DNA of 63,965 nucleotides, counting the filler, from Phoronis australis (Eukaryota; Animalia; Phoronida): the NCBI GenBank assembly GCA_002633005.1. It is 3 parts of 3 records of this genome, joined end to end, with 100 filler letters (N's around TTAATTAATTAA, not from the genome) between each part and the next. Parts side by side here need not be neighbours in the genome. Positions count along the whole stretch, not along the records: positions 1 to 24,847 come from NMRA01000009.1; 2 more parts are not named here. The stretch is one strand, 5' to 3'. The notes below the pieces were generated by a model that saw nothing but the letters and a program-made list of their open reading frames with translations, was not told the DNA's origin and did no database searches. Every line of letters starts with the position of its first letter. Position 1 is the stretch's first letter. Made by a program: the position numbers and the translations under genes. This document shows positions 3,179 to 41,813 of the stretch, piece by piece.

Positions 3179-4069
3179 CTACAGATGCACAGACCACAAC
3201 ACAATCATTACAGTAATTATTCTAGAGTGACGTAAAGTACATCCGAACCCATATGCCACCATGGAAACACGATTGCTTCGCACCTTTTCAACGAAAGGCC
3301 GCCCGACGAGGTGGCAATAATACACATAGTGCCCACGATTAACAATGAGATTTGGATTATATAATAAAGTCAATTTTTGTGATATGTCGAATGTGCACAT
3401 GCTGTCATTTCGGCTCGCGACGATAGTTGGTCCTATTATCTCATATTTCGAAAAGTTCCGTGTAATTAATTGGGTAGGGGTAGCATTTGAAGACCCGAAG
3501 AGTGACCACCTTCTTGACCACTGGATGGACGGCGCGGGCTCCACACCTTGGGCACGACATGTGAGAACCGTAAAGTTGTTTTTGCTCACAAGAACCTTGA
3601 AAGGCACCTGTGTAACATTTCTGACGGTACATGCCGTGTCTATAGTCCAGTTCGAGTACGCTGTTGAGTAGACATTGACCCCATTGGGTATGACATCACA
3701 GCAATATGTCATTTCATCGCAAGATCTCAGCTTTTTTATATACAATGTTAGCCATATGTTACGTCTGTTTTGTCTAAATACATGCTTGATCACGAGAGAA
3801 TCTTTCCGCTTTGGTAGAAACACGGGTTCATTCCTCTGCACATCATAAGCAAAAATAAAATTGTCACTTGACGTTAGAATTGGGCATCTGCGTACCGTGA
3901 TGTTCAATACACTGTCCGATAATACATCAGATATGTTGCAATACATCGCTGAAGCATCCGTTTTGCCCAAAATTGTTGGAGGAGTTTCTAAAGTCACGAT
4001 GATGGCATCAATTGAAACAGGCAATCGCAGCAAAACTAATGTCCCACACAAAATGAGGAATATCGACAT
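3179..4069 (-). CDS. Intronless immunoglobulin-superfamily surface protein (signal peptide, V-like + C2-like Ig domains, probable GPI/hydrophobic tail)
   Basis: 296-aa ORF; hydrophobic N-terminus; domain 1 AMYC...LTLYIKKLRSCDEMTYCC (DxxxYxC); domain 2 VLTCRAQGVEPAPSIQWS...YVYYC; hydrophobic C-terminus IITVMIVLWSVHL with no cytoplasmic tail; several N-x-S/T sites. Confidence 0.85.
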   Translation of the reverse strand: MSIFLILCGTLVLLRLPVSIDAIIVTLETPPTILGKTDASAMYCNISDVLSDSVLNITVRRCPILTSSDNFIFAYDVQRNEPVFLPKRKDSLVIKHVFRQNRRNIWLTLYIKKLRSCDEMTYCCDVIPNGVNVYSTAYSNWTIDTACTVRNVTQVPFKVLVSKNNFTVLTCRAQGVEPAPSIQWSRRWSLFGSSNATPTQLITRNFSKYEIIGPTIVASRNDSMCTFDISQKLTLLYNPNLIVNRGHYVYYCHLVGRPFVEKVRSNRVSMVAYGFGCTLRHSRIITVMIVLWSVHL

Positions 4070-7000
4070 CCTCTTGTTTCAAAAAATATCCAACATGTCT
4101 GCCATTATTTGCGTGCATCTTTACGAAACGTTACGTGAGACTCAAATCGTAAACCACGTATCATACGCTTTCGCGTGTGGATTTTGCTCAAGTCTAAAAT
4201 TCATAGGCCCACTGACGCTATAGGAAATCGACTCCTTGCTCTCGTGCTTTTGTGAAAGCAAAATGTTAGCGCTAAATAAACTTCACGCTTATCACGAAAT
4301 ACCAAGCACCGCATTTGCCTTCAAACGATATAAAACTCAAAAAACAAGTTAACTGTAAATAAGAAGCAGTTGCCTTGACACCGTAACGTACGAAGCACAG
4401 GGAAATCGTTTTTGGAGCGAAATGAGCATTAGGTAGCATGTCTCTTTATTGCACGAAACGAAAGATGTTCGAGAGACACTGAATTTGAAGGTTTTTTCAA
4501 TGATAAGACAAAAGGCAACGACAAGAGGAATTAAGTTACGACTCGATAAAATGAAAACAGACGCACTTGTTCTTTTCAACAGTGTATGGGGACTAATCGA
4601 AATCGAGCTCAAAAATATTTTTGACATTCTGTGTCAGTCTACTTTTGTGCGATTTCAAGACGAGTGTTTATTATTTAAGAGCACGTTCAAAGAAAGCGGC
4701 TTAACTTCATTTTGACTTAGATCTAAGATTTGTCTCAACTTCCAAACTTTGAAACCACATCCGATAAGTTAGTCAAAATTACGGCGCGTTGAGTTTCGGA
4801 GCGCGCTGCTGAATCGACGGTTCCGGATATGAAGTTGTCCAATCTAGCCAATGGAAATATTTCGCTGCATCACGTGTTATAGATAATACGCAAAGCTAGC
4901 AGATACCCGTGTACGGCTGCCCAGCAACATACGTTTTGGTTCGTTCACGACCAAGCAACCCACAAACAAAAGTAAGTGTCAACATGCACCAAACAAAATG
5001 GAGGTTAATTAACAAAACTTAATGTGCAAAAAATTCTTGAGGCGCACACAATTATTTCGCTACTTAATCGATTTTGAACTCTACGTTAGGCGTCAGCCAG
5101 CGTCACGAGGGACAAATTAGCCAAAAACATAGCGGAAATTAAATATGCAACCTGTTTGTAAATAAGTTTTTTATAGAAGAGGCTGTAGGCACCCTCACCA
5201 GTATGCCTTCATCCGGAGGAAAATTTGTGACTACAGAAATTACAAGATTTGTGAATCTGCATTTTCCTGCAACTGTTAGTTATTAACTTGCTTCGTTGGT
5301 TTATGAAAATTGCAAGAGATAAGACATAAATAACACTCCACACGTACACTTGCCTTGTTGATTTCTTCTCACAAGCTGTGACTTTCCAAGTCATTAACGG
5401 ATTCTTTAGGTGATCTCTCTCGACTACCTGTCAATTTGGTTTTCACTTGAGAAGTCTTCGTGAACTATGGAAAAATATTGAATATTACGTCCATCCTTTG
5501 TTACGCTAGTCGCATGTTCTCAGTACTATCGTGTGGAGAATTTCTCGCTTACGCTGGTCACCGCTCTGATTCCCTAAGCCCAAGACAACTTTTACGATGC
5601 CTATTCAGCACGCCCTTTGTATTGAAGGAGATCTGAGCTAATGAAGTGGAAAGGTAATTGCTCGCATTACTGTCTCAACAATGATTGTTGTTAGTACCCC
5701 CAATTTGGTTGTCTCCGACATTTGCAGAGTTACAGCCTGCAACTCTGGAGAGTAGTTTTAACTTGGTACATTATAAATATTACAAAATGACTAAAAAGGT
5801 TAATTTGTGTTTATCTTCACAAAGGGCCACTTCCCAAAGGAACGATAAGTTTCATATTGGTTTTCTTTATTTAATTTTTAATGCTTCTGCCCACTTGTTT
5901 TTTTCTTACCGGGAACGGGTTGATAACTTTTTATCTAAGTTTTGAACTTGAAGTACCAAAACTGGTAGATTTTGATCGCCAGCTAAACTTAATTAGTTAA
6001 GTTCATTGTGAGCCCATCCCTAAATTTACCACATTACAGGTACACTAAACATTTCACGTTTCACGTGTCATTTAAGTTTAATCTTTATTAGAACTCAAAT
6101 CATAAAATATATACAAAAGTGCAAATATGGTGACAACCAAACTGAATATTTGGGATCTTTGGACAATTTCGGTGGCACTGACTATATAACTATTCTAGCT
6201 CTTTGTCAGTAATAAAAAATGAAGAGTGAGCAGAACAACTGTTTCCTGGTCAAAAATCTGGTTAAACGAGATTGAAAGAATATTAAAAATGAATCCATGT
6301 GATATTGTTAACTCTGATCAGCGTTTGTATATCCACCGAGTACATCAATACGCGCGGTAGTTTATCTTCAATCGTACCCAATGGTTGTAATTTTTAGATT
6401 ATTAGTTCATCGATTTTTAAAAATCGAAAACTGCACTTGGTTGTTGTTTTTTTTTGCAGCTGAATACCGCCGTGGTGTTCGTTTACAACGAAAATTAGCG
6501 GTTAATGCATTTTGAAAATTTGTCATTATGTAGAGTCAAAAATGTCTAAAGGGCCTTTCATACTAACGTCGGCGCGTCGATGGTTTGGGGAGTTGCGGTC
6601 AGTATGAACGTGACTTCCTTGTAAGCGTATTATTCAGGGCATCATTTACAATGCCACTCGTGGAATGCATCGCTTGTCAACTCGGATCTCACGTAGCAAA
6701 ATTCTCATAAAAGCCTGTTTTATGACTATTTGGAATAGCTATTTCAAGGCATGGCACAAATGAGTGCACGTGTATCGTAAATATACTTATGGACTCAGTG
6801 AGAAAGAATTTGTCGGATTTTCTCTGTGTGCCAGTGTTCGATACATGTAGACGGGACATATCTCCGAACGGTAAGTGAAGGCATATTTATGTGTCTGGGC
6901 TACAGGTAGACAGTACTATACCGTCTCAACTGGCAGTAGAGACGGTGGCCATCTTATAGGTCCTCCATACGTCAGAAGCTTTTCGGCGAATTATGCCTCA

Positions 7001-12011: not shown

Positions 12012-13224
12012 GTGGAAGGCTTCGATTTACGGTAAAGTGTCTCCATTTAGGAAACGATATGGCGGACAGACATGTGAATGGTATTTTTTCCTTTTTCATA
12101 AAAGACAAATAACACCAAATAAATATTTTGTCAATCGTTTTTAGTTCTATACCATAGCTACTTGTTTTGAGAAATTGTGGACATTTGCGACATTGTTTGA
12201 AACTTTTACAAAATGAGAAAAAGTAAACTTTGGCAACTATTTTTGTTTGAAATTGGTGATAATCGATATCGTACTTGAATAACTCGAATGATTAGTGATG
12301 ATTATTCGCCACTGTTATGGCACGATTTGGACCCAAAACAGGGATAGAAATGTACATTCACATAACACATTTTTGCAGTTCTTGGATTTTTTCCAATTCA
12401 GTTAACCACGGGAATAGTGTGTTTGGATTAATCGGTTAATTCTGACCACGCCTTCACCTATTGTTTGCTCCCGGGGGAAATGAGAAAGATTAATATTGAC
12501 CAGCCTCCCGTTTAGTAACACTAGGACCTCGCTAAAAAGCAAGACTGCGAGATTATGTGAGATATTGCCGTGTATTTTAAACGAGATCACATGACTTTGG
12601 ATACATTTTAACTAGGTCCTAGCGTAGGTCCTAACGTTACTGAAAGCACGCCAGGTCTCTAGCCAGGTAATAAGTTGCTTAGTAATTTAAAACGCTGCGT
12701 AAATCTGGCCTAATGATTATTTTTTTTTAAGTTTTGCTTTTTAATTTTATTTGACTGGGTCCAAAATGTCACTATCATATACTAAATAAGCGAATAAATT
12801 CCTACGTTTAAAATTTCCAGAAATACCGTAGTTAACTCAGATGGAATGGTGGAAGAGTCGTTATTAACCGGTCAGTGATTTAGAACTTCACCTCCAGTCA
12901 GATCATGCATCTTTTTAAACTTGAAGATGAATGGCTTCCATGTGTTAACAGCACGTGACGGAGTAATCCCAAAGACACTGGTCACGTGACATGGCATGCT
13001 CGTGGGACAGAGTTCCTATTTTTGTAATTCCAGTTGTTTTCGTAACACGTTGTCTAATTACGCCAATCACTGGCAGCGTCGATATGCCGCATCTGCTCTT
13101 GTCGGTGTTCCCGTAAGCGTATTTAAATTCTCACTGGGCAACAATGCACTGCAAGCAACGCTATGACGTTCTCAGTGAACAACTCGTCTTTCAAGAACTC
13201 CTTAGCAAGTATTCAGATGGTAAA

Positions 13225-13312
13225 ATGATAAATACTCCGTTCTTCAGATTTACTTGCTTGCCCTGCGTCATAATAATAACTGCAACGAGTTTCATGAAAG
13301 TGGAAAATGCTG
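13225..13312 (+). CDS. MAM-jacalin-metalloprotease gene, probable exon 1 (signal peptide)
   Basis: MINTPFFRFTCLPCVIIITATSFMKVENA-G|gtaagt; phase-1 donor compatible with exon at 15083. Confidence 0.6.
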
Positions 13313-14367
13313 GTAAGTTATTTTATCATTCTTTGTGGCTACGTTATGTTCCATATGTCGCTAATGAAGTCGAACTGAAGTTGTAAATTTTAACTGCAAT
13401 AAATCAAGCCATTCTTTGCATCGAAGCAGTCAGTGAGCTCCATTCTCTCTATGGTGTTGTTGTTTGTAATTAGGAATGCCAACTCAGCGTAGGGTTTGAC
13501 CCCGACGCATCCAAAGGTTATCAAAGATGGCATTGCATAGGGTTTTAACGTCGCATTGTTAAATGCAGTTATTTCGAGCACAAGAAATAAACAAAGCTGT
13601 GGGTACCATTTTGATAAAAAGACAATTTATGAACTATAAAACGATTCACAATTTTTGCAAGGAAAGCTCACGGAATTTAAAATGGCATCTGTGGACATTA
13701 TACCCCTGATGTGAGGTTACTGTGGTATGAAAAAATGATTATTTAGATAACTGTAACATTGTTTTTGAGATTTCGCCACATACTTTTATCAAATGAAATT
13801 TGGTAATGTCGTCAATTGTTTAGCTATAATTGTATCTTTCTTTTTGTGAAATTTTACTAAAACATATGGTCACGTGGCCCATTCATTGACAGATTGGTAC
13901 AAAGTCAAAAATGAAATTCTAGATGCTTTCTATGGTCAGAAAATGTATACACGTCAACGACCACTTACCAGAATTACTCTAATTCAAACAATACCAGAAT
14001 GTGTCAAAACAAAACAGAATATTCGCCAGACATTTTCTGACAATAAGCTTCATCGTGAGCGGACACGTTCTTTCAATATAGTCACGCCAGGAGAAAGTTC
14101 TTGTGCAAATTGTTTCTGTGCACATGTACTTAGTAAGCGTCTGCTTTGTTTGTAGTGCAGTCAGGGTATTGCGCAGTTTTCTCCGCTCTGAAATGATTGC
14201 ACAAGTCGTTTGTATTTCTCCTTTCCTGCAAAAATGTTACAGTAGGACCTAAGACGGGATTACACACACTTCGCAGTACAAGAGAGCAGAGCAGACTCAG
14301 TTATCCATTAAACTGCTTATACAAAAATAACGGAGCGCTCGACTTAGATCGTGAAGTATTATACATT

Positions 14368-14466
14368 TACGTGTATACATGTATGCATGCATGAAATGTA
14401 CGTGTATACATGTATGCATGCATGAAATGTACGTGTATACATGTATGCATGCATGAAATGCACGTG
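14368..14466. repeat. 31-bp tandem repeat x3 followed by an alternating purine/pyrimidine tract
   Basis: tacgtgtatacatgtatgcatgcatgaaatg. Confidence 0.88.
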
Positions 14467-15082
14467 TGCATGCGTGCGTGTACGGGCATACTTGTGAGTG
14501 TGTGTGTGCGTGTGAAAGTATGTACGTCCTGTGTGCGCATGCGTGTGCGGGTGCGCGTGTTTGTACGAAGGTATTTATACGTCCAGTGGTCAAGGCGTGC
14601 TTTCGCAGGTTTTGCTTATATCATAGGCGGACCTTGTCTACGCTTCTGTCCAGCGGGCAAGATTGATGACTGTGGGAATGGTCCACCACGGCGTCATACA
14701 AGGAACACATCAATACAGACGTAGACCTTTTCCATACTCGCACACTTCGAACACGTGTTACCGACAAAACGAAATAAAAAAACCAGTGCAGCCACTTAAA
14801 CTCCCGTGCAGCATATATAACCTTACCAGTGCTTGAATTCAACAACTTTCACTTCAGGTCGGCTCCAGGCCATGAACGTAAAACATAATTAGTTACGGCC
14901 ATTTCATTTGTATACAACACACAACCCGTCACGTGCCCATCGTGGGGCACGAGGTAACGATATGATACGGTTCAGAAAACGCAAAACGTAAAATAGCTCA
15001 CTGGGTAACAATATTTGATGTTTCTCACTAGGTAACATAATTGATGGTTCTCACTAGGTAACATTTTTCATATCGCTTTTAG

Positions 15083-15223
15083 AGTCAAGCCTAACTTGCA
15101 ACTTCGATTACTCGTGGTGCGATTTTCAGCAAGATTATACAGACCAGTTCGACTGGAGCAGACGTAGTGGCAACACTCCATCGGCTGGAACGGGACCTTC
15201 TGTTGACCATACAAGTGGACATG
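15083..15223 (+). CDS. Exon 2: MAM domain N-terminal part
   Basis: ttttag|ESSLTCNFDYSWCDFQQDYTDQFDWSRRSGNTPSAGTGPSVDHTSGH-G|gtaggt; classic CxFD..C.F.Q...D.FDW...TPS..TGP..DHT. Confidence 0.92.
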
Positions 15224-15971
15224 GTAGGTCTCCGGTCTTTTTCAACTACCTTAGTCTACAAATGATACGAAACGCGCACTCAGGCTGTGAGAGTAACACA
15301 TACGTACATTATATGTTAGCAAGTAGAGCTGACGGGTAGCTGCAACTGTAACTAAAGAACCCAGGCAGCTATGAAAAGGTTTTGTTCCAGAATCGACAGC
15401 CTTGTAGGAGTTAATTCCATGAACCAAATTCTTTTGTAGGGTTCTTGCCTTGGGCAGTTTTTGAACCAATAAGCTTGAAAGAGTACAAGGAGAGATTCCA
15501 TGATGACAAATGTGTGCACATATTTGACACTAGAACTTTAAAAATCAATACAATGCTAATAGCCCGTATGTATGTTTTTGTAGCCGAAAAAATAAACCTT
15601 TTTGTCAGTTGAGATTAGTAGACTCTTTTGCAGGTAATTTATTCGGAAACGGCACTATTTGGTAGATGATTTAGTTGAAAAAGGAATACTCTTGCAGATA
15701 AATTTGTTGGAAAAGGCACCCTCCCTTTCCTACGGAAATTGGTCATTAAAAAGTCAGCCGTCTGCGCGGCATTTCCCATAAACCTCTATTATGGGAGTAC
15801 GCCCTGCTGCATTTCCACTATAAAATCGAAGACGTTTGATGTGAAGAGTTTCACGTTTGGTTGTCATCAATAACATAAATTTCAGCCATGTAATTTTGTT
15901 GCACAAGATTGGACAGATTTAGAACACATGTTGCGCCTAAGGTACGTGAATTTTTGTAGTCATGGTTGTAG

Positions 15972-16169
15972 GAACGTACGTGTACATTGAAAGTTCCTCT
16001 CCGCGACGTAGTGGTGACAAGGCAAGACTGATATGGAAACCTTTGCAGAGCCTCAACACTGTTCATTGCTTAACATTTTTCTACCACATGCATGGCGAAC
16101 ATATCGGCGATCTGTCAGTTATCGTCATCATCGGCATCTCTACGATGCACCGACTCTGGCTAACTCAAG
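15972..16169 (+). CDS. Exon 3: MAM domain middle
   Basis: GTYVYIESSSPRRSGDKARL...CLTFFYHMHGEHIGDLSV...LWLTQ; phase 1-1, AG/GT bounded. Confidence 0.93.
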
Positions 16170-18442
16170 GTACTGCATGCCTTCGATAATAAAATTCCCA
16201 GTGGAACCACACATTAATTAAAACTATACAATTTCAGTTTATGTTTGGACGAAGACTCTTGTTCCTTCAACAGAATTAACTTGTACATGTTGGTAGAATG
16301 CGGAAATGTTTGTAAGCTTCGTCTGTGATTATCGTGCCTTTACCAAATAAACTTTTCTGACAATACCAGCGAATGATCATGTTAAAACATTTCACCTGTG
16401 TCCATGTTCGCTCAGACCATAATACTCCAAGTCCACATACCCAGCCCTTTCTTTTGAATTTGAGTGTCATCTTTAAAAATCGGTTTTCTTTCTGAAATGC
16501 GCTTTTTTAACATAAATGGGCTTTTTCCGCAGTACATGGCGAGCGGGTTGCCATAAAGTTGCCGAATCCTTGTTTTTACCATTTTGATTGGTTTTGAATT
16601 GTTTGGGGTTGAAACTAAACAAGATTTTACTAATATTCTTTTTTTTTCTACAAACACGTCAATTTTTAATCGACAAAATAGATTTTAACAAAAATAGTCA
16701 GTGGTACGACCACAACTAATAAGTATTCATTAAAAAGTGCCATGTATGTCGAGTGCCCCATCTAGCTCGTGCATTAAGATAAATAGCTGCTATTTTGCTC
16801 AGGAACTTTCAATTCTATACTCAACAGAAGATAACGTGTATTACATGCGTATAGAAATCACGCTGCATAAGGCATGATATGGCAACTCATTTGGCACCGG
16901 GAATGGGGAACGGATGAGGTACAAGGGCCTCCGGGAGAAATGACAGAGTAATTAAAAGGAGGCGGAAACTGAAATGTTTCTGACCTTGACGATCGATTGT
17001 GTTCCTTGACTAAATAACGCGTTCTTCTTAATTAGTGAACTTAGTGATCCAATAAAACTGTGGCAAGTTCGACGTTCGTTTTCACCTCCAATTACTCACG
17101 CAGATTATTCCACTTTTTGACCTGCGATTATCCAGTCGTTACATTAGTACTCTTTTCTCTCAGAACGTTCCTTTCGTTTTTTCTTTGTTGACTCACTCAG
17201 TCCAACTGGGGGGTCTCCCTCGCTGTGGTGATGGCATAAACTGTCCAACAACGCTAGACATGACGTCACAAGCCACAAGCTGTGCTGTAAGCGGTGAACA
17301 ATGTTATGATGAGGGCTGTCGAAGGGTGTTGAATGAGTAAGTACTTGTGTTCATTGGAGTTCAAGGCAAGATCACAGGCATTTGATTGGAAATTGTTTAG
17401 ACTTTTCTCGAGACGCTGATTACATTTTTCAACGATTATTATCAGAGAATGCAAGGACGCGCGGCTTTTGGGATTATTTTACCAGGATCGATTTGATTTG
17501 AATTGTAACCGTCTTATTCTTCAAACTAGGGTCCAACACTTTCGGTTTTACACGAGAACGCTTAGTGGACTTTATTGATAAAGCTTCTGACGGCTTGATT
17601 CGACACCACGAACGTGTTTTCTAAATTTTCAAATGTTAACATTCCTTTCATCTCAAGAATGACTCAGAAATGATACAATTATTGCCCGCAAATCGAAAAC
17701 ATTATAGGATCATTACTGACAGATATCAAAATTACACAAGTCAATTTTTACGGTACAATATAATACGTATAATAATGAATTATATAATTACAAGTTCACA
17801 TTAAAGAGATGAACAAACACACAAAAAACACAGTGAGACTGCTAAGTAGTTAAAATTTAGTTTAAATGAACTATTGGATACTGTGAAACACGTTGATTAT
17901 TAGTTAATGTGTGGTAAATGGAGGTGACATCAATATTTGAATCAAGGGCCTGTAAGAGACGGAGGAGCTGGACACGATCTATTTGGTTGACTGGACAATT
18001 ATTAACACTATTTAAGGAGCCGCATACGATACCTTTATGTGATGAACATTGATATAGCGTTTACAGCTAGATTCGCCGCTACAAAAGCGTTTTCTAAACT
18101 TGAAGTTTAATGCTGTAAACGTGCGTTACATCAAAGAAACGAAGACGAACCGCTTACTGTTTCAAAAGGATTACAACTTATCATTTACTCTGGTGAGACG
18201 TATTTTTAATCTTGGAAAAAGTGGCTATTCGTTATCGCTTGATATCACGCTCGCCGCATAAAATGACCGCCGCGACAGACCTACATATTGAGTCTGATCT
18301 CAAGAAATAATATACTATCAGATCTTTCCAAGCCCCGAAATCCCATCTGAGTTTGGAGTCCAATTTCATGCTTGGAAGCGGTCTAAATCGAAAGTTGTGT
18401 TTTGACTGAAGGTGGGTACAAAACAGCTTTATTATCATGTAG

Positions 18443-18619
18443 GCAGTTCTGGTGACCAGTGGGCAAAGGCCAGTATCCATCTTCCATCCACGACACGACA
18501 GGTGACATTTGAAGCAACTACCGGGATATCCTACAGAGGAGATATAGCCATCGATGACGTCACCATCTCTAAAGGAAGTTGCATGAGAAAATTCACTGCA
18601 CGCGTTTTCCGCAAAACTG
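18443..18619 (+). CDS. Exon 4: MAM domain C-terminal part
   Basis: GSSGDQWAKASIHL...VTFEATTGISYRGDIAIDDVTISKGSC; phase 1-1. Confidence 0.93.
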
Positions 18620-19392
18620 GTAAATTTAGCGATATCGCTGGCCTGTTGACAAGCATGTGTAAATGTTGCACTTCAACAACATCTCCTGTATACATGTTTT
18701 GTGATTTTCACATTATACGTCTCATTATTAGTTGTTTTTTTTCGATCAAATGCAGCACAGTTATGAACTTGCGATTGGTTGATTTAGACCTGCCCACTTA
18801 CTGCTATAGTGGTCTCACTTTGTTACTTAATCAGATGAGAAGAGATTCTTGGATTTGTGAAGAAATGACAGTTATTTATTCCTTGAGACCAATGCTAAAG
18901 TGACAGGCAGTGACAGGGCAATTTGTAGAGACTCATGTCTCAAGCAACAACGAATTATCAGTTCTTCTGAAACCCTGCAATCAGCTCTAATTTGAGACCA
19001 GTTGTGCCTAAATCAAAAGTTGGTTTTTAGGTGCAAGCTGGGTTTATAACCGCTAATTAAATAGAGAATTTTATGTGCAGCAGTTAAATCACTGGTGGGT
19101 TACCAAAAAGGGGCGTCACAGAGAATTTGATTGTAAAAAGGCAAATACGTTCTAGTGGAGCGCTACATACGCAGGTCCAAAATCGACGGACACCCTCATA
19201 GAAAGATAAACTAATAATGGAGCAGTTTATTCAGGCAAAAATTGAACCTATAAGCTTCATTCAGACTGTAGTATTATCGAAAAAAACTTGAAGTGTTGGC
19301 TTGCGTTATTTCACGACTCACTTTTTATAAGGGTCATAAAATTTAGTCAAAACATTCTGTAAAAGTCCTATTGGGGAACGAGAATACCCAGG

Positions 19393-19590
19393 GTAATGAA
19401 TGAATGGCGCTCAACGGAAGAGTGATTATCTCTCGATAAAGAGTAATGAATAAATGGCGCTTAACGGAAGACTGATTATCTCTCGATAAAGAGTAATGAA
19501 TAAATGGTGCTCAACGGAAGAGTGATTATCTCTCGATAAAGAGTAATAAATAAATGGCGCTCAACGGAAGACTGATTATCTCTCGATAAA
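19393..19590. repeat. 50-bp tandem repeat x4
   Basis: gtaatgaataaatggcgctcaacggaagagtgattatctctcgataaaga. Confidence 0.92.
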
Positions 19591-19741
19591 ACGCATTCTG
19601 GTTTCTCTATTGGTTAATACCAAGGAAAGGTTGTCTTTAAAATTTGATTTCCTACTTTTCCAAAACTGGGAATTTTTTCAGAAGTCTGATTTACTATAAT
19701 TTGTACAACTGATAGCTGTAAATAAGTGATATCCCTTAGGG

Positions 19742-20113
19742 TAACTGTAAACCTTGTTTACCAGGTTGTACTTATGTGCAAATATTAAATTCTGTTAGCT
19801 CTAACCCCTACAAGGTATATATTTTCTGAAAAGTGAATAAATTTCCTGACAAAATTTATGATTCTTATTTACTTGTCTTTATTTATTCACGAGAAATGTG
19901 TTTTAGTAAAAAAACAAACTTTAGACTTTGAACAGAGATTTTAGAAATATTGTTCCTCCAATCATAGTGGACTTTTGTCAACACGTTGATAACGGCATTT
20001 TCGAGGGAACAGTATCTCAGATTTTTGAAATAGGCTTTTGTTTTTTTCACTAAAAACGCATATCTCGTGAAAAAATAAATACAAGTACAACCTGTTAAAA
20101 GGTTGACAGTTAA
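19742..20113. mobile_element. MITE with imperfect terminal and sub-terminal inverted repeats
   Basis: taactgtaaaccttgtttaccaggttgtactt vs aagtacaacctgttaaaaggttgacagtta; inner pair cacgagaaatgtgttttagt / actaaaaacgcatatctcgtg. Confidence 0.6.
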
Positions 20114-20183
20114 CAGATTTCAAACGTGGATTCATTCGTTTCTAGTCTAAAAGGCCTTTAACTTAATGTAATGTCCTTTTTAG

Positions 20184-20316
20184 ACGTTAGAAAAGTATGC
20201 AGTACTGAGGAATACGGCAGACAAGGCATTGTTAAGTTTTCTGACAAACTGGTTTACAAGAACAACGGAAACCCTGCCAGAATTCTAATACGCCACAATA
20301 ATAAAGGTATACGCAA
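20184..20316 (+). CDS. Exon 5: jacalin-like lectin domain N-terminal part (not in ORF track)
   Basis: tttttag|DVRKVCSTEEYGRQGIVKFSDKLVYKNNGNPARILIRHNNKGIR-AA|gtaagt; phase 1-2, joins exons 4 and 6 in frame. Confidence 0.8.
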
Positions 20317-23300
20317 GTAAGTCTCACCATCAACTTGGACTGAAAGAGAATAACCTGTGCTGGTTAAAGTAAGCACATGTTGTTTCTTAAGTGGAATCAA
20401 GATTGTTGCACACTGACTGATGCAAATGTTTTTGTAACCACTTACAGTAGAACTAACATCATGACCAGTATCGCTAACAACATGTTTGTATCCAAAACAA
20501 TTATGGTAACTGTTGCTCTTGTCGGGTATTCTTAGCGTCAGTTCTATATTCCTTTTAATGTTATCATCGCTATGGTTAGCATGTTGTTATTGTTATTATT
20601 CTTTGTTATATTTTTTTTCTTAACGTATTAGTCTTAGCAAATACGTGTAAGGAACTTGTCGAAACAGTCTTCTCATCATAAGCACTGACTATACACGAGT
20701 TCACAGTATTCAGATGAGAGTGTAGCGCGTGCTCTGGCGAGGTGACAACCTGGGTAAACAATCGAATTTTTAAATTGCGTTGAATGAGAAACCAGCAATA
20801 TAATGTAAATTCCTCAAAAAGCGAGTGAATGGCTAAAACAGCGCTTGGTTATAAATCTATGCCACCAGTGCGTGAATACAGCGGGGTTGCTTGGACAAAC
20901 AAAGTTTCATATTATTCATCAGAAGTTAGCTTTTATCCCTCAGATCTCGACTTCGTTCGTCAACCGATGCCGGGTGATTAGTGATAATGATATTTTGCGA
21001 TTATATCAAAGCTTTAATAAATTTAACACAATTTAAAGACTTGATTTTTCTTTTGTGTCGAGGGTTAATTAACGGTACAAATACTGAATCTGGGATGGAC
21101 TTCGCGAAAGCGTGGCCGACTTTGCACACGATCGATTTTAGCGACTTCATTGGCATCTCAACAATACATTCCAAAATATGATTCTCTGGCAGTGCTGTAG
21201 TGGGGCGTTGGCGCACGTAGGCGCAGCCAACCACCTTTTGGCATTTGAACGTAACGCCTACGCACCGTAAGTTACGTTCAATGCTCAAGGCGACACGATG
21301 GGCTTTGGGGGTCTACTTACCTCTAATTGTACCACTACACCACTGTTCTCAGGCAGAACAATGGGTTTGTGATACTCCTGGCAACTCTTTGATAATACAG
21401 TAGATATCTTTCGAAAACTGTTGGTTTTAACAGGCATTACTCTGCCGTCTACTGATAGGGGAAATGCACGTAAATTGGTTCGTTTGCTGTACTAAATTAT
21501 GTGTCCAAGACGGTGGACAAAACCATGAATATACAACAGGGCCATCCGGAACAACTGCGAGCAGTTTTCCGCACATTCTCCTCTCAAAGTTGTCCGTTAC
21601 CGAGGTTGGTCATGTAATATGTCAAAATAGGTCCAAGCGTTACTGTTTGAGTAAAAATATCTATACGTGTAAATCTATTCAGTAGATTAGAAGTACATGT
21701 GCCGTCTAAATTAATTCCACATCAGTGACCTAGTAACCTAACTGAAATGATAATCATTCCGCTATCGTTATACTTACCCACGTAGGCACATTTTGAGTGG
21801 GAAGACAGACTTAGTCCAAACAAACTAAAGCATTTCTTTACTAAATTTATTAAGAAGAAATGCTCTTTACAAATCTGACATAACTTTTAATACTGAAATT
21901 TTTCTTTCTATTAATTCAGTTGCTGGAATAACCCACGACTACAATATGGCGGTAACTTCCGGCTGCAGAACTAAAACTATTCTTCCTTCTCTCACCTGTC
22001 TAGGTGAAAAATCAAAATTCAAAATATACCACTGGCTACCAAAAAATTAATACCTTACCGTAATTAAACTTGCTACCGTTGTCGCTGTTATTACGAGTCT
22101 AAAACAATAGTAACTCGCCTGACTGGACAGCCTTTCCATTATCTGTCCGCTTCAAATTAATGCGATTTTTAAATCTCTCAATTCCGCTCAAAAACGATAC
22201 TTTAACTGCAACTGGCTCTATTAGCACATTATGTCGCTTTTAAAAAGGTATGGAATACGAAATCTCGTCAAAGATATCTGTACCATCTCGCAACGTCTAC
22301 TACAGAGTTATTCAATTTCCTCAGAAAAGTTCACAAAATACGTGCTAAGGAAAAACTCTGTAGTCACCACAGAGTTTCTAATCTCTGTCCCACTTAAGAT
22401 AAATGCTCGCAAGCCCTCACTGCCATTCGACAAACAGATGACTTACAAGATGGATATTAATGGCAGATTATCATATGTAATACCACTCCGAATCTGAGGT
22501 CGACAGCACAGTATGAGGCAAGCTAATGAAGCAAGCGGTTTCCTGAAAATATTTCAAAATGCAATTTTGAATATATTTGAATACTACGATACCTTCAATA
22601 GATAGATAACTGTTTATTCATCTTAAGAAATTGAACACAAAGTGATACAATTACTACCCGCAAATCGATAACATAATATGCAGGCAAATAAACAATCATA
22701 ATAACAATAAATATAAAAAGGATGGTTACTGACATATATCAAGAACACGACTTTAATGAAATTAGATACTACATCTATTAGAGAATATTCAAATCTAAGT
22801 TAAGTAGATATAATCCATAAAGTAAAACTAAAGCACGTTGGTTAATAGGTAAGGTGTGGTAAATGAAGGTGTATCAAGGTCATGGAAGATATGGACACGA
22901 TTCACTTGATTGACTGGACATTTAAGAAAAAACGCTATTTTAAACAGTTAGGGGTCACATCAATTGCCCCTTTATCGGACTGGCTGCTGTTTGAAGATGG
23001 CATTGTTTTGTTTACATCAAAGGTCAAAGGTCACATATTCCATAGAAGGGCAATGTTTTACGTCTTGTTATACCAAATAAGAAGACGTGCTTTGCTTTGT
23101 GAAAGATCATTTTTTTGAAATTTGAAACTAAAAGAAAAATGCTTTGGCATCAACAGTGATTCAAAATTTTTACGAACAAACTAAAAATACCTGGTGAACA
23201 GGATGAATTCTGTTTTAGCGGCAGATAACCACATTGAATGATGCAATTTTGTCTGTTTTTCGCGTTCCACGCCTCTTTAAACAATGGGAGAAGGAAGCTT

Positions 23301-23467
23301 GAGCAACTTTAACACGTATGACGTCACTCAGACGTTTGCACGTGAATGCTAACTACACTGATCGCTGAAACCAAATTCGAGCAGCATTTTGGAATGTTTT
23401 GACCACAGTTTTACAGAAAGATAAATCAGTTCGTTTAAAATGAAGTCAGCTAATTATTTACTTTCAG

Positions 23468-23847
23468 GATTATGTTTGGATATGGAGAGCACTTTTCTTC
23501 AAGCAGTAGTGGCAGTAGTGATGATGGTATCAAGTACACTTTGAACAAACTTGGAGCTAGCGAAGTCATAACTTCTGTAGACTTAGAATACGACTACGTC
23601 ATTAGACGAATCATTTTCCGCACCAATAGGAGGCGCCAGATCGGTCCGTTTGGATGTCATGGCCTGTTCCGGAAGCATATTAGCGGGACATCCCTGTTAT
23701 ACATCTCCGGCTCAGAAGATTCAAATCACGTAACAAGCCTGCAATTCCATTTTAGTTCCAAATGTGATGAGAACGTCTTGGAAAACTCTGTGCTACAGAG
23801 TTTACAAACGCCGACCTACGATTTGAACCCAAACCTGATGTCAAATG
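23468..23847 (+). CDS. Exon 6: jacalin-like lectin domain C-terminal part plus linker
   Basis: tttcag|KIMFGYG...LGASEVITSVDLEYDYVIRRIIFRTNRRRQIGPFG...LLYISGSEDSNHVTSLQFHF; phase 2-1. Confidence 0.82.
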
Positions 23848-24252
23848 GTATTTCGATCAATTTTAGCTACCGGTACTAAATCTTGACCGACCAACACTAC
23901 ATGTACATAAAGATTATGTGTCCATCGAATCTTCTTTTTACACTTTTTTATAAAGTTGAAAACAAAGTAATATTAATCTTAAGGTAAATATAAGATTGTT
24001 TCCGTAACGTATATCTTCGGGAACAATAAGTTGCTAGACGGAATCTCCCGATGTTAACCAACCGCCTTGTTCTTCCTAGTGAAGAAATGGAACTGTTCCA
24101 TTTCCACATAGAAAGGTAGTAAAGTCAAGGTAATAATTCAGGTAAATTGATATTTTTGACATCAGTAATTAACTCTCGTGGATGAATGACTATGTCTAAT
24201 CAATATGTTATAACTATTTTGTCATGTGATTCTATTTTTTGTATTTTTACAG

Positions 24253-24440
24253 AGTCTTTTTCACGTCTAATTTCAGATACACATGCCCGTATTGGTATGG
24301 ATCGACTGTCTTCCCAGAGAACGCTCAATGTGGAAATAGCAGTATTCCTAGACACAGCGTATGCTCACCACTTCTATCACTATTCGTCATTGAAATCAGG
24401 GAGCAATCTGAGAGCTCATGTTGTTCAGCTACTCAGGAAG
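24253..24440 (+). CDS. Exon 7: start of reprolysin/ADAM(TS)-type (M12B) metalloprotease-like domain; gene truncated by gap
   Basis: ttttacag|ESFS...RTLNVEIAVFLDTAYAHHFY...LRAHVVQLLRK|gtatct resembles the first strand/helix of M12B (VELxVxxD..Y); zinc motif not in window. Confidence 0.62.
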
Positions 24441-24847: not shown

Positions 24848-24947
24848 NNNNNNNNNNNNNNNNNNNNNNNNNNNNNNNNNNNNNNNNNNNNTTAATTAAT
24901 TAANNNNNNNNNNNNNNNNNNNNNNNNNNNNNNNNNNNNNNNNNNNN
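24848..24947. other. Assembly spacer (N + TTAATTAATTAA + N)
   Basis: 100-bp N-run with a six-frame-stop linker. Confidence 0.97.
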
Positions 24948-28486: not shown

Positions 28487-29226
28487 CTGCAGAATGGTCA
28501 AAACATTACCTGGGACACGATGATATTATTTTGTCTATGTTAATTTGCTGGTTAAAAACAATTTGAAGTGTCTAATACAGACCAACACCTTGCCTTGTGT
28601 AACTACAGAGTTTATTAGTTGACTGTGGGCAATACAACTCAGGTGGCTGGGATTTCAGAAAAATATAAAATACCTCCCGACTTTTGATTTTTTAGTTCAA
28701 ATGCAAGATAAAAAGAGAAGAGCGAACTGCAGAGGAAGAGGGGAGGTAGGTATGTGAGCGGGGGGGGGGGGGTGCAGAGGGGGAAAGTTGTCAGGGAGAG
28801 AGGAAGCGGGGAAATTCTTGTGAGTCGACATCGACTACAATCTATAAAAGTGATTTAAGTCATAATCAAATCCCCCCAGTATGATGCCATTTAAAGCGAA
28901 GGCAACCTTTTCCATGTCATTTTGAGCTAAAATAAGGTTGGTTGGTTATCCTTGACATATTTTCCACTTAAGTACAGCTTTTCGTAATTTTATAAATTAC
29001 TCGTCCGCTACTCCGGAAGTGACGTTTTAGGAGGCAAGCGTTTCCCGCAACTTGGTTTTGCGTTGACTTTACCGTGCGAATCTGTTCTATTCTACTTTTG
29101 CTTTGTGCTGTTTTTCAACAATTGTCGCCACCACTTTCCATCGGCGAGTATTCTGCGGCAAGATAGGTTAGTAGAGAACTCAACTACGTTGGATTTAGGG
29201 ATTGTTTAGTGTGTTGTAAGCTGAAA

Positions 29227-29505
29227 ATGGCTGGAGTCGGTGACCCGTATCACAGTGACAGTAGTGTGAGTGACGGAGACCTTGTTCACAGCAGTGGTGA
29301 CGAGGAATTTTTTCACGGACATTCAGTGGGTGGGTACATGTTTGAGCCCGAGTACAACGAGGCAGAGTACACACAGGCACAGGCAGCTGTTGAGAGAAAC
29401 GAGGCGGCTACTGAAGACAGACGTGGTGACACATCTTGGTGCAAATGCACTGTGTGCGTTGTTATGCCTACCTCAATTGAATGCTTGTGCTGTTCCGAGT
29501 TCCAC
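29227..29505 (+). pseudogene. KolX / P2X7-ballast (nanor)-like Cys-rich protein, truncated
   Basis: YMFEPE...WCKCTVCVVMPTSIECLCCSE motif; fused to the transposase remnant at the deletion junction. Confidence 0.78.
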
Positions 29506-30568
29506 ATCAATTATCTTTTTGGTCTCTTCCTCCATTAGAGTGTATGTGGTATACTTGGCGGACCGCCCTGGTGAGTCAGACAAGTTCTCCTTCTCCATGA
29601 ATTCCGCCACCAACTCGAGATGTTGTGACATGTATGCGTCATTGACAACTGGTATTAAATAGGAATTCTGAATGTTGTTGAATGTTGTTTTCGAAAAAAA
29701 ACTTGACTTTTCCAAAGTCCATCATTGTCTTCACCGACTGAAACGTGTTTCCAGTGAAGAGCACACCACTGGACATGGTTAAGTGGACCTCCGGCATACC
29801 ACGGACAGAGGAACAACTGTCCCACTTGCCAGAGTGTCCCGTGACACACTCCCACTGGATGGTGACCTGAGCACCCAAACTGCTTACATTGTGTCGTGTG
29901 ACTCCCTCGCCACACACCTGGCACCTTCTAAATAGCTCCAACACTTTAGACAAGTCCACAATAAACTTATCAAAGTTTGGCTCACCGATCTGTTCACTGG
30001 ACGACGAACTGTCCTCTTCACTGGGTGTCGAACTGGGCCTGTAATCACTCCCACTACTCAATATCGCTGCAGGGCTGCTTAGAGGCTCTGGGCTGGAGAA
30101 AACAGCACAGGGCGAATCACTACTGGTTCCAGGAATTGCACGCTCTGGGGTACGTTCGGAGGCACGGGTGACAGTAGATGAAGTGCCTCCACTGGCTCCA
30201 GTCACTGTACTGGCCACAGCTCGCGAGGCTTCTCGCTTCAAAAACGCACTTCTCGGGGGTGGCGACGGGGCACTGCCGGGAATCAACACAGACGGAATGG
30301 CATCCTTCTTCAAGCGTTGTTTCGCGGGGACCTTCATCAGTTCAGCGTACAAATCCCTTTCGTAATCGGACGGCAGAAAGTGCTTGCCACACACACGGTA
30401 ATTCTCCACTGCTTTGTACGTTGCGTGGACGGGTAACGCTGCGTTCTTCACACGAACGAGCCAAGTACGGCGAAGTGTGTCATCCATCGGAAAGCGATGC
30501 TAAGGTACTCCCAAAGCGCGCGTGAGACGATAATTAGTACATCCCGGTACGCAGCAACAGTGTGGCAT
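29490..30568 (-). pseudogene. Kolobok transposase remnant with N-terminal THAP domain
   Basis: MPHCCCVPGC..*HRFP..RRTW..VCGKHF..LKKDAIPSV (THAP, in-frame stop); CQVC..C..GH zinc finger; frameshift near 29695; DSPGRSAKYTTYTLM catalytic-region motif lacking the preceding GDG. Confidence 0.85.
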
Positions 30569-31828
30569 GTTGACTGACTAGTAAATGAAAGCAAACGACG
30601 ACGGAACTTAACACAACCGAGGTAGAACAATGACTGAGTCGGCAGCTCTCACAGTCAGACTATATGAAAAGAAATTGGCGCGAAATGCTTGCCTCCTAAA
30701 ACGTCACTTCCGAAGTAGCGGACGAGTAATTAAGTGGAAAATATGTCTAGGATAACTAACCAACCTTATTTTAGCTCAAAATGACATGGAAAAAGGTTGT
30801 CTTCGCCTTTAAGTTAGTGAATGCCATTCCGGATAAAGCCAAAGATGCTAAAACCTTGGCTGCGTTCAAAAGACTTTGCAGGCTCCACCTGTCATCACAG
30901 TTGTGAGAACCATACTTAAAAATCCATTGCGACTGAGTTATTTATTTCTAATTCATAATTATTTTAGACGATTACTGATTAGACGGAGTTATTCATTTCT
31001 GATCTACAATCATTTTAGATGATAATGTTTAAAACTAACATGGGTGCACCTACGTAATTGTAAACATAAGTTTAGTTAATTAAACTGTGTGAATGTGAGT
31101 GTGAATGAGTGTATGAAAGTCCTTCCCCTTCCTGTCCCCCCCCCCTTTTTATATTATTCTCGGCTAATTATTCGCCCAATCATTAGGAGTTATTTTTCAG
31201 ATACTCATTTGTTCTATTAACATGATGTATTATACTCTAGTAAGTTGTAAAGATATGTAGTTGTGGCAACCCAACCCAGCCCTATCTATTACTCACTAAT
31301 GACATGCTTTCTGGGTAAATAAACGTATTGAAATAAAAACATGGGTGCACTCGTGAGCCCTTTAAAATCACACGCAAGCCTTTTGTTTTTAAGCAAGAAC
31401 GCGATTGAGGCGCAAAACGATGTGAGTGCACACCAGAACAGAGTATTCTATTTTGACCTTAACTCAGAATTTTTATTGCGTTTTATTTCCTCTGCTTGAT
31501 CGTGAACAAGCGAACTTACATTTTATTTCTTTTCCCCTGTTTCTGAGCCACTCTGGTTGATCAGCTTCAGGACCATGAGTTCAAAATAAATTTCGCGAAC
31601 CGAAGGGTAACATTCACTGTTGTGCCACTCTTCGTGTACTGTAGGTCCAACAAATGTGTGTCATATAATGTACCTAATGATAACTGTGGGTTGTCATATC
31701 GAGAGTCGGAATGTGAAAATGAATTTGCGACCAGCCTCGATACATGTACATACATGTAATGACTTTTATTCATTTTATTCATGTTGTATTACAAAAACAT
31801 ATCTCAATAAGAATGACCATCCACTTAC

Positions 31829-32142
31829 GTTTTCGGACGACATACTGTGTTTTTTACAGGCCTAGCGTAATACACCCCTCTGAAAGACCGGGAATAGTAG
31901 GTCCGCTTTTTACACGGGCGGGCAGGTTTTTGCCAATTTCCAAATTGTCGCGTCTCAAGATCATCTTGCAATTCTTTCTCCATGCTTGTATCTGTAGCTG
32001 TAAAGTCGTCAGCAAACATCTCCCCGGTGTTTCTTATGTCGAAGTCACCTAGTCCATCGTTAGCCTCATTCGTGACGTCATCTGCACGCGCGTGTACGTA
32101 CAGGCATACCGCGATTACGGCGAATAAATCCTGTAAATTCAT
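31829..32142 (-). CDS. Cystine-knot/antistasin precursor, exon 1 (signal peptide, acidic propeptide, start of mature domain)
   Basis: MNLQDLFAVIAVCLYVHARA-DDVTNE...ELQDDLETR-QFGNWQKPARPCKKRTYY...NTVCRPK-AC|gtaagt. Confidence 0.85.
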
Positions 32143-34569: not shown

Positions 34570-35566
34570 TTAAAAACCAGACGATCGCCCCACAAATAAA
34601 AAAGTTCATGTTCAATTCAACGTTTCGTCTTTCCATTAGACATCATAAGGATCATATTTACAACAATTTTGTGCCAACATACAGCTCAGGTAACATCCAT
34701 AGAGTGAAGTGAGAGATACATAGAATATGGTCAGTAACTGGTCATCACCATAGTTTCAGGGTCACTGAGCTCTGCATGTTGTTCAGAGAATCAGTGGCAT
34801 GCTGGTTCCGAATGCCCAATGACTCATTAATGTACAGTAACTCCTTATTAGATTCTCTGCAGATAATACTAACAGAATTGGCTTGGTGATTGTAGCTAAT
34901 ACAATGCCTATATATGTTACTTTTCTCTGAGTTGTGATGTTCTTTCAGCCTGTCACAGAGGCGTCTCTGTGTGAGTCCTATATAGAATTCCTTACAGTTG
35001 TCACATTCAACCTAATACACAACATTGCTCTTTTTCAATAAAGGGATGGTTGACTTCAGTTTACACAGCATATTGGAAAGTTTCCGAAGGGGTTTGAAAA
35101 CAACTATCAGTTTAACTGCTGGGTCTATGCAATGAATAAGGCGAGATAATTGACGTTTCAATTTTATACTACTTGGCCCGGTGTAACCAAGAGAAAAGAA
35201 AACTTTCTTTCTCTCGGGTCCAGTAACAGCTACCTTATCTGCCTCATTCATTTTTGAAAGAAAGTGCCTTTTACAGCTATTCAGAAAATTCAGTGGGTAA
35301 CTATTGGCACTCAATAACTGGAAAATCATAGCTACGTTACTATCAAAATTTAAATTGGTGAAGCAATGACCCTGCAACTATGGTGATGACCTGCTACTAT
35401 ATTCTAGGTATCTCTCACTTCACTCTGTAGATGTTATCTGAGCTGTATGTTGGCTCTTGTTGTCCTAAATTGTTGTAAATATGATCCTGATGATGTCTAA
35501 TGACAATAAGAAACGTTGAATTGAACATGAATTTTTTTATTCGTGCGGCGATTGTCCGGTTTTTAA
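34570..35566 (-). mobile_element. Penelope-like retroelement fragment flanked by inverted ~200-bp terminal repeats
   Basis: Minus-strand GIY-YIG remnant SNVVY*VECDNCKEFYIGLTQRRLCDRLKEH...IYRHC...LYINESLGI; arms 34570-34767 and 35364-35566 are reverse complements. Confidence 0.85.
35478..35530 (+). ncRNA. Minimal hammerhead ribozyme motif (degenerate) in Penelope repeat
   Basis: CTGATGA-tgtc taat gaca-ataa-GAAACGTT; inverted copy at 34615-34655 reads CTTATGA-tgtct aatggaa agac-GAAACGTT. Confidence 0.6.
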
Positions 35567-41713: not shown

Positions 41714-41813
41714 NNNNNNNNNNNNNNNNNNNNNNNNNNNNNNNNNNNNNNNNNNNNTTAATTAATTAANNNNNNNNNNNNNNNNNNNNNNNNNNNNNNN
41801 NNNNNNNNNNNNN
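41714..41813. other. Assembly spacer (N + TTAATTAATTAA + N)
   Basis: Same 100-bp linker as at 24848. Confidence 0.97.

What the first reader, a model, noticed from the sequence alone, without database searches (positions are those of the whole stretch)
13225..24440. Unusual MAM + jacalin-like lectin + M12B metalloprotease-like mosaic gene
Seen: seven exons chain in frame with canonical splice sites, and phase-1 introns lie at the domain borders, a sign of exon shuffling. The order is signal peptide-MAM-jacalin-linker-start of a reprolysin-like domain, with no recognisable ADAM prodomain. Knowledge: MAM normally follows astacin (M12A) domains, and ADAM/ADAMTS ancillary domains lie C-terminal. 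Inference: a lineage-specific glycan-targeted secreted protease (mucus, defence or venom).
Basis: partly seen in the sequence, partly recalled or inferred. Interest (0 to 1): 0.72.

Follow-up and report, generated by a model that had tools for sequence, protein, structure and literature searches.

The report
Lectin-capped metalloprotease-like animal gene
A transcribed, spliced animal gene joins a MAM adhesion domain and a jacalin-type lectin domain to what is likely the start of an ADAM-family zinc protease, so it likely encodes a matrix-tethered secreted protease whose usual pro-domain has been replaced, but the cutting site lies beyond the contig end and most transcripts in two of three RNA samples skip the signal-peptide exon.

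Summary
The gene is real. Stranded RNA reads show all six splice joints. MAM (exons 2-4) and a full jacalin domain (exons 5-6) are confirmed. The exon-6 read-through stop is not the main end. The exon-7 acceptor is 24277.

Exon 7 likely starts an M12B domain. Its ORF ranks first of 703 window segments against an N-terminal M12B profile (4 of 2000 shuffles as good), but Pfam, PDB and hhalign give nothing. The contig ends at 24847, so the zinc site is untested.

(1) The jacalin lacks the mannose-binding aspartate at all three griffithsin-type sites and is basic (net +8), so it likely binds polyanions or protein, not mannose. (2) In two of three RNA runs nearly all transcripts start inside intron 1 (about 14975) and lack the signal exon; the signal-exon joint has 0, 1 and 3 reads.

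Nothing here supports venom. I found no protein or paper with this domain order, but InterPro and annotated invertebrate proteomes could not be searched. The scan's earlier notes held no such gene. Verdict: a new domain arrangement of a known protease family.

The parts
13063..13127 (+). CCAAT (13063) and TATA-like (13120) elements upstream of exon 1; likely promoter of the signal-bearing isoform
   Evidence: motif scan; RNA depth 0.7-2.4 over 13155-13336 in all three runs; promoter function inferred
13225..13312 (+). Exon 1: ATG plus signal-peptide-like hydrophobic stretch (aa 1-29)
   Evidence: Kyte-Doolittle 12-residue window 2.34; joint to exon 2 in 0/1/3 reads; no signal-peptide predictor run
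14975..15082 (+). Alternative 5' end inside intron 1, read unspliced into exon 2; dominant in runs X1 and X2; start placed only to about 14960-15000
   Evidence: depth 24.4/28.1/0.66 in bin 14975-15065 against 0.47/0.25/0 in bin 14884-14974, no loose end listed before it; contains a 26-nt repeat, 2.6 copies, at 14997-15064 and two short upstream ORFs
15083..15223 (+). Exon 2: MAM, first third
   Evidence: PF00629 E 1.2e-6; joint to exon 3 in 39/28/1 reads
15972..16169 (+). Exon 3: MAM, middle; holds Met 16088, the first long in-frame ATG of the intron-1 isoform, followed by an unusually hydrophobic strand
   Evidence: PF00629 E 4.2e-10; minor acceptor 12 nt upstream in 3 reads of X1
18443..18619 (+). 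Exon 4: MAM, last third; all four MAM-region cysteines (aa 35, 42, 109, 189) are present
   Evidence: PF00629 E 2.1e-8; joints 34/34/1 and 38/37/3
20184..20316 (+). Exon 5: first third of the jacalin beta-prism
   Evidence: own jacalin profile: e5 alone 4.9 bits, 2 of 1000 shuffles as good; e5+e6 52.7 bits over profile 5-141 of 142 against 41.3 for e6 alone
23468..23847 (+). Exon 6: rest of jacalin (to aa 341) and the first 31 residues of the linker; minor in-frame acceptor at 23756 skips 288 nt of the jacalin
   Evidence: PF01419 E 6.8e-8; griffithsin E 0.001; minor joint 4/1/0 reads
24277..24440 (+). Exon 7: end of the linker, then likely strand 1 and two helices of an M12B catalytic domain (from aa 388)
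   Evidence: joint 23/29/4; sub-profile test; 30 and 29 reads run on into a further exon that is not in the window
24848..24947 (.). Assembly spacer; the contig ends 407 nt after exon 7 and the rest of the gene is missing
   Evidence: N44 + 12 bases + N44; no HExxHxxGxxH in any frame of the window

Best explanation
This is a transcribed, spliced animal gene whose MAM and jacalin exons are joined to what is likely the start of an M12B (ADAM/ADAMTS-type) zinc-protease domain, likely put together by exon shuffling so that the two modules sit where the prodomain normally is, and whose exon-1 form would be a secreted protease tethered to mucus or matrix. Steps: (shown) one mRNA carries MAM, jacalin and exon 7 and continues into a further exon. 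(Shown) the linker is 46 residues with no furin consensus. (Inferred) the modules therefore stay attached and act as N-terminal docking sites, with little or no prodomain latency, as in ADAMTS13. (Shown) the jacalin lacks the mannose-binding Asp and is net basic. (Inferred) it binds sulfated glycans or protein, like the heparin patch of ZG16p, while MAM mediates dimer or substrate contact. (Untested) the downstream exons supply an intact zinc site. (Shown) a second start inside intron 1 yields signal-less mRNA with four upstream out-of-frame ATGs. (Inferred) that mRNA is poorly translated, and the rarer exon-1 form makes the working protein.
For: Six RNA joints and a stop-free frame. Pfam MAM and Jacalin. 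Full-length jacalin over e5+e6. Against a 51-column N-terminal profile from 77 bacterial M12B proteins, the ORF holding exon 7 ranks 1 of 703 six-frame window segments (5.3 bits; next best 4.3); exon 7 alone is matched by 4 of 2000 shuffles and, with the next-exon peptide, by 1 of 2000. A profile from 50 of those proteins finds ADAM, ADAMTS and snake-venom M12B chains in the PDB. The next exon, read from 30 and 29 loose ends, stays in frame and puts a Tyr where M12B chains have one after helix B (compared by eye). Four MAM cysteines, a cysteine at each end of the jacalin (aa 207, 345) and one N-glycan site fit the secretory pathway. ADAMTS13 has a dispensable 41-residue propeptide (PMC3787661, passages). 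The ZG16p D151N mutant loses mannose binding and keeps heparin binding (PMC4059138, passages).
Against: Exon 7 has no Pfam match, no relevant PDB match, no protein-database hit at E up to 10 and hhalign probability 0.4. With the whole M12B profile it scores only 1.0-1.7 bits (34 and 10 of 1000 shuffles as good; five unrelated window segments score as high or higher). The sub-profile was chosen after seeing that result. Single-sequence AlphaFold2 made exon 7 all helix. The conserved Asn of helix B is Arg here. The signal-exon joint has only 0/1/3 reads against 39/28/1 for the next joint. No ADAMTS chain appeared among the 42 hits, so the 'ADAMTS-like' sub-label rests on a recalled motif. No orthologue was found, so selection on the fusion is not shown.
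Confidence: 0.5

Rival explanations
1. Same architecture, but the M12B-like domain is catalytically dead, and the protein is an adhesion or scaffold molecule, like ADAM22.
For: Exon 7 is highly diverged from M12B profiles; the jacalin site is also degenerate; no prodomain is present, which an inactive domain would not need (inference).
Against: Nothing direct; the Glu and Asp of strand 1 and the Tyr after helix B are kept.
Confidence: 0.15
2. The intron-1 isoform is the working product. It starts at Met 16088 inside MAM, where a MAM strand has become hydrophobic enough to act as a new signal peptide, or it starts later and gives a cytosolic jacalin-protease.
For: It makes up nearly all transcripts in X1 and X2, at an implied depth of about 25-65 on every exon from 2 to 7. 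The stretch after Met 16088 has a 9-residue hydropathy of 3.22, against 2.69 for exon 1 and 0.6 for the one control MAM (L001).
Against: Four upstream out-of-frame ATGs, one of them (16033) opening a 49-codon ORF that overlaps Met 16088. The MAM N-terminal part is intact with its cysteines, which suggests the full domain is still used. The control is a single MAM.
Confidence: 0.13
3. Exon 7 is unrelated to M12B; the gene is a MAM-jacalin lectin or adhesin with some other C-terminal domain.
For: Blank Pfam, PDB, database and hhalign results for exon 7; all-helix single-sequence model.
Against: Sub-profile rank 1 of 703 and 1-4 of 2000 shuffles, for a candidate named before the test; only 40-50 residues of the domain are available, which limits every search.
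Confidence: 0.13
4. A venom or defensive-secretion protease.
For: M12B enzymes are venom components in snakes (PDB names); expression differs about tenfold between runs.
Against: Expression is modest and tissues are not given; the highly expressed form lacks the signal exon; no tandem paralogue in the window; nothing here shows a venomous host.
Confidence: 0.04
5. A young, decaying chimera with no working product.
For: No homologue with this architecture; degenerate lectin site; main transcript likely poorly translated.
Against: A stop-free frame over seven exons, efficient splicing, conserved cysteines; the two exon differences among the 40 listed (of 221) are one synonymous and one missense change.
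Confidence: 0.05

Closest known systems
Peptidase family M12B: ADAM, ADAMTS, snake-venom metalloproteinases (Pfam PF01421, PF13688)
   Same: Exon 7 fits strand 1 and the two following helices; signal peptide in the exon-1 isoform.
   Different: MAM and jacalin lie N-terminal, in place of the roughly 200-residue prodomain; no furin consensus; zinc site and C-terminal domains not seen.
ADAMTS13
   Same: Very short stretch before the catalytic domain (41-residue propeptide there, dispensable, PMC3787661; 46-residue linker here).
   Different: ADAMTS13 has a furin site and its docking domains are C-terminal; here two folded modules precede the protease-like part.
Fungal and oomycete Metallopep-jacalin fusions (PMC5536079)
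   Same: A jacalin domain fused to an HExxH metallopeptidase-type domain.
   Different: Different peptidase family and kingdom, no MAM; an independent fusion.
ZG16p, griffithsin and pearl-oyster PPL lectins (jacalin-related beta-prism I)
   Same: Full-length beta-prism domain; basic surface as in ZG16p.
   Different: The GxxxD aspartate is absent (Thr or Arg at the three griffithsin-type positions); the domain is part of a mosaic protein, not a free lectin.
Meprin and other astacin-MAM proteases; enteropeptidase
   Same: A MAM domain in an extracellular protease; in enteropeptidase MAM lies upstream of the protease domain (hits; order recalled).
   Different: Meprins are M12A with MAM C-terminal (recalled); enteropeptidase is a membrane serine protease; neither is known to me to carry jacalin.

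Membership tests
M12B (ADAM/ADAMTS/reprolysin) | HExxHxxGxxH zinc motif | not testable with these tools
   Contig ends at 24847; motif absent from all six frames of the window; loose ends give only 30 letters of the next exon; next exon not in window or metagenome contigs.
M12B (ADAM/ADAMTS/reprolysin) | Met-turn | not testable with these tools
   Lies beyond the contig end.
M12B (ADAM/ADAMTS/reprolysin) | N-terminal strand-helix-helix of the catalytic domain | tested here: inconclusive
   Favourable: rank 1 of 703, 1-4 of 2000 shuffles. Unfavourable. The alignment-guided model fits but is circular.
M12B (ADAM/ADAMTS/reprolysin) | Prodomain of about 200 residues ending in a furin site | tested here: not met
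   46-residue linker, 0 R-x-K/R-R sites in 427 residues; ADAMTS13 is a known short-propeptide exception (PMC3787661).
ADAMTS | Disintegrin-like, thrombospondin-1, cysteine-rich and spacer domains C-terminal to the protease | not testable with these tools
   Downstream exons missing.
MAM domain (PF00629) | Full profile with four cysteines | tested here: met
   Profile positions 1-43, 45-94 and 111-157 of 158, each above the curated cut-off; Cys 35, 42, 109, 189.
Jacalin-related lectin (PF01419) | Full beta-prism I domain | tested here: met
   PF01419 33.5 bits, cut-off 22; e5+e6 cover own profile 5-141 of 142; sequence evidence only, the domain was not folded.
Mannose-binding jacalin-related lectins | GG loop and GxxxD binding-loop aspartate | tested here: not met
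   Griffithsin's C-terminal Asp aligns to Thr and its middle-site Asp to Arg; the first-site position is Arg, read by eye; the GG loop reads YGRQG; motif defined in PMC4059138.
Secreted protein | Signal peptide on the expressed mRNA | tested here: inconclusive
   Hydrophobic exon 1 is spliced in 0/1/3 reads; the dominant 5' end in X1 and X2 lacks it; no predictor available.

The most novel reading that the evidence does not exclude
An active M12B protease that has swapped its inhibitory prodomain for a MAM-plus-polyanion-binding jacalin head, and whose gene has also gained an intronic promoter making a second, more abundant form that enters the secretory pathway by a new signal peptide carved out of a MAM strand. 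One gene would then switch between a MAM-bearing and a MAM-less lectin-protease by promoter choice.
Probability: 0.07. Interest if true: 0.75.

Novelty: new variant of a known kind. Interest (0 to 1): 0.42.

Why it matters
ADAM and ADAMTS enzymes are normally held latent by an N-terminal prodomain and aimed by C-terminal domains. A member with aiming modules in the prodomain's place would be a natural test of how M12B enzymes fold and stay controlled without a prodomain, and of whether a jacalin that has lost its mannose site can aim a protease at sulfated mucus or matrix. The weight is moderate: lineage-specific domain shuffles are common in invertebrate secreted proteins (own knowledge), the catalytic site is unseen, and only one species is known.

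Tried and rejected
No whole genome is held for this window. Word-based protein searches for longer relatives of exon 6, exon 3 and exon 7 found none (294, 9 and 10 candidates); the tool calls such blanks weak evidence. HMMER over 1.84 billion representatives with exon 6 gave 5 hits: 3 jacalin proteins with ricin-B, ankyrin or unknown partners and 2 unrelated; none has MAM or M12B. The ESM Atlas gave no result. No RNA holder was listed by index; the runs used were found by species label, and reads over 12700-15400 were mostly 99% alike or better (97 of 112, 101 of 112, 12 of 19). Run X4 (contigs) does not cover the exons. The next exon is not in the window or in metagenome contigs. Exon 4 found only two contigs, L001 and L002; L001 is a multi-MAM gene and L002 was only scanned for one motif. 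A search with P0002 in genome contigs found nothing. AlphaFold2 on exon 7: single sequence all helix; with an M12B alignment extended-helix-helix, circular and not counted. The PDB search with an alignment of exon 7 plus 11 bacterial M12B pieces is circular for membership and showed no ADAMTS. Five short motifs were not found in the supplements of PMC4349717 (one supplement store gave no answer, and picture alignments are unreadable). M12B, reprolysin and jacalin were not found in 10 supplements of PMC12549020. Rejected: end at the exon-6 read-through stop 23879 (joint reads 23/29/4 match the exon depth of 20/24/2 at 23738); acceptor 24253; a hidden upstream exon for the intron-1 form (no loose end or joint listed, though a leader under about 20 nt could be missed); splicing of exon 1 to the AG at 14975 (no joint listed, and by eye the frame would stop).

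Full report
Setting. The window is animal DNA of about 39% G+C, made of three pieces joined by identical spacers at 24848-24947 and 41714-41813. The gene lies at the end of the first piece, and the sequence stops 407 nt after exon 7. No genome is held. An unchecked note from the scan calls this genome a likely lophotrochozoan; I did not test the lineage.

Exons. Seven exons read in one frame: 427 codons, no stop. Pfam puts MAM on exons 2-4, covering profile positions 1-43, 45-94 and 111-157 of 158, and Jacalin on exon 6 from position 39. A profile built from seven jacalin repeats of three database hits shows that exon 5 supplies the missing first third: exons 5 and 6 together cover 5-141 of 142 positions, and exon 5 alone is matched by 2 of 1000 shuffles. 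Intron phases are 1,1,1,1,2,1,0. MAM and jacalin are each bounded by phase-1 introns, as shuffled extracellular modules usually are (own knowledge). Two phase-1 introns also lie inside MAM, so phase alone is weak proof of recent shuffling.

RNA. Three stranded RNA runs with the same species label were laid on the gene, about 18-19% of each read. Joints e2-e3, e3-e4, e4-e5, e5-e6 and e6-e7 have 39/28/1, 34/34/1, 38/37/3, 38/35/1 and 23/29/4 reads in X1/X2/X3. The exon-7 acceptor is 24277. The e6-e7 count matches the depth inside exon 6 (20/24/2 at 23738), so the read-through stop at 23879 is not the main end. Thirty and 29 reads leave exon 7 into a further exon; its 30 letters translate in frame as Q-R-W-Y-V-H-P-S-L-G. 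A minor in-frame joint (20316 to 23756; 4/1/0 reads) drops most of the jacalin.

The 5' end. The e1-e2 joint exists but has 0/1/3 reads. In X1 and X2 the depth rises from under 0.5 (bin 14884-14974) to 24-28 (bin 14975-15065) and runs unspliced into exon 2, with no loose end listed. Nearly all transcripts there start inside intron 1 and lack the signal exon. In X3, where the gene is about ten times lower, the exon-1 form is the one seen (3 joint reads; depth 0.66 in that bin). The intron-1 form has no in-frame ATG opening a long ORF before 16088; four out-of-frame ATGs come first, and the one at 16033 overlaps it. It is likely translated poorly. The strand after Met 16088 is oddly hydrophobic (3.22 against 0.6 in one control MAM), which leaves room for a new signal peptide; that is speculation.

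Is exon 7 M12B? Direct searches are blank: Pfam, PDB, protein database. I pulled 80 bacterial loci by a zinc-motif pattern, kept 77 with enough upstream sequence, and checked that a profile from 50 of them finds ADAM, ADAMTS and snake-venom M12B chains. The whole 77-sequence profile aligns exon 7 to positions 39-74, where the catalytic domain starts, but weakly: 34 of 1000 shuffles do as well, 10 of 1000 with the next-exon peptide added, and five unrelated segments score as high or higher. hhalign gives probability 0.4. A 51-column profile of the N-terminal part, chosen after that result, ranks the exon-7 ORF first of 703 six-frame segments, with 4 and 1 of 2000 shuffles as good. By eye, the Glu and Asp of strand 1 and the Tyr after helix B match the PDB chains printed; the helix-B Asn does not. 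The residues after that Tyr recall ADAMTS enzymes, but this is from memory and no call confirmed it. AlphaFold2 on the fragment alone gave helices only. I put about 85% on M12B origin. Activity is untested.

No prodomain. Between the jacalin end (aa 341) and the M12B-like strand (aa 388) are 46 residues with no R-x-K/R-R site. ADAMTS13 shows that an M12B enzyme can fold and work with a 41-residue, dispensable propeptide (PMC3787661, passages seen). Cys 345 could pair with Cys 207 to close the prism or act as a cysteine switch; neither was tested.

The lectin site. Mannose-binding jacalins use a GG loop and a GxxxD aspartate; in ZG16p, D151N loses mannose binding but keeps heparin binding through a basic patch (PMC4059138, passages seen). 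Here griffithsin's C-terminal Asp aligns to Thr and its middle-site Asp to Arg; the first-site position is also Arg, read by eye. The domain has net charge +8 against -9 to +3 for the seven comparison repeats. No difference at that Thr is among the 40 listed of 221 in the RNA. Mannose targeting is unlikely; polyanion or protein binding is the better inference.

What is known. Jacalin fused to Metallopep domains makes up 28.9% of a fungal category in PMC5536079 (passages seen). MAM occurs in the non-catalytic chain of enteropeptidase. Ten full-text searches found no paper describing MAM-jacalin-M12B: searches gave 0 papers; some searches gave 1, 8, 2, 2 and 3; two searches were background. I saw passages only of PMC5237233, PMC4349717, PMC12549020, PMC9779611 and PMC4223035, none with this architecture, and listings only of the rest. 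The library lacks most subscription papers, bioRxiv supplements are closed, and InterPro architectures could not be searched, so absence from print is not shown. Seven of eight look-ups in the scan's own notes gave nothing relevant; one search gave three notes on other genes of this genome.

Verdict. The best reading (0.5) is a secreted M12B protease with N-terminal docking modules in place of a prodomain. Rivals are an inactive scaffold (0.15), a working signal-less or re-signalled isoform (0.13), a non-M12B tail (0.13), a decaying chimera (0.05) and a venom component (0.04). Novelty: new variant of a known kind. Interest 0.42.

Noticed in passing
window 31825-32142 (-): Single-exon 105-residue ORF shaped like a peptide precursor: hydrophobic N-terminus, acidic pro-region, then a basic C-terminal peptide with two cysteines. 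Could be an antimicrobial or signalling peptide. No Pfam match; expression not tested.
   Followed up: partly
window 29639-30499 (-) and 29167-29721: THAP-domain ORF (PF05485 E 4.6e-9) facing a small ORF on the other strand, between similar flanking stretches near 28930-29040 and 30690-30800; looks like a DNA transposon.
   Followed up: partly
window 3179-4078 (-): Intronless 299-residue ORF with hydrophobic ends and weak immunoglobulin-domain matches (Ig_3 E 3e-4, below cut-off); possibly a GPI-anchored or membrane Ig protein.
   Followed up: partly
window 48751-49020 (+): ORF resembling, from recall, the first exon of mitochondrial glycine dehydrogenase; no Pfam match on this piece.
   Followed up: partly
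window 34745-35377 (-): Two adjacent ORF pieces resembling, from recall, the end of a Penelope-type retroelement (GIY-YIG-like); not searched.
   Followed up: no
window 21189-21345 and 22280-23281: Intronic repeats with many RNA reads on both strands and many loose ends; dispersed mobile-element fragments inside intron 5.
   Followed up: no
window 14997-15064, 19393-19590, 14368-14467: Tandem repeats of 26, 50 and 31 nt; the 26-nt one lies in the alternative 5' leader and carries two short upstream ORFs.
   Followed up: partly
window 15960-15971: Minor acceptor 12 nt upstream of exon 3 (3 reads in X1) that adds four codons including an in-frame Met, a possible start for the intron-1 isoform.
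   Followed up: no
window 14793-14974 (antisense): Reads of the opposite direction (depth 3-4 in X1 and X2, with loose ends before 14827) just upstream of the intron-1 start; a repeat or a divergent transcript.
   Followed up: no
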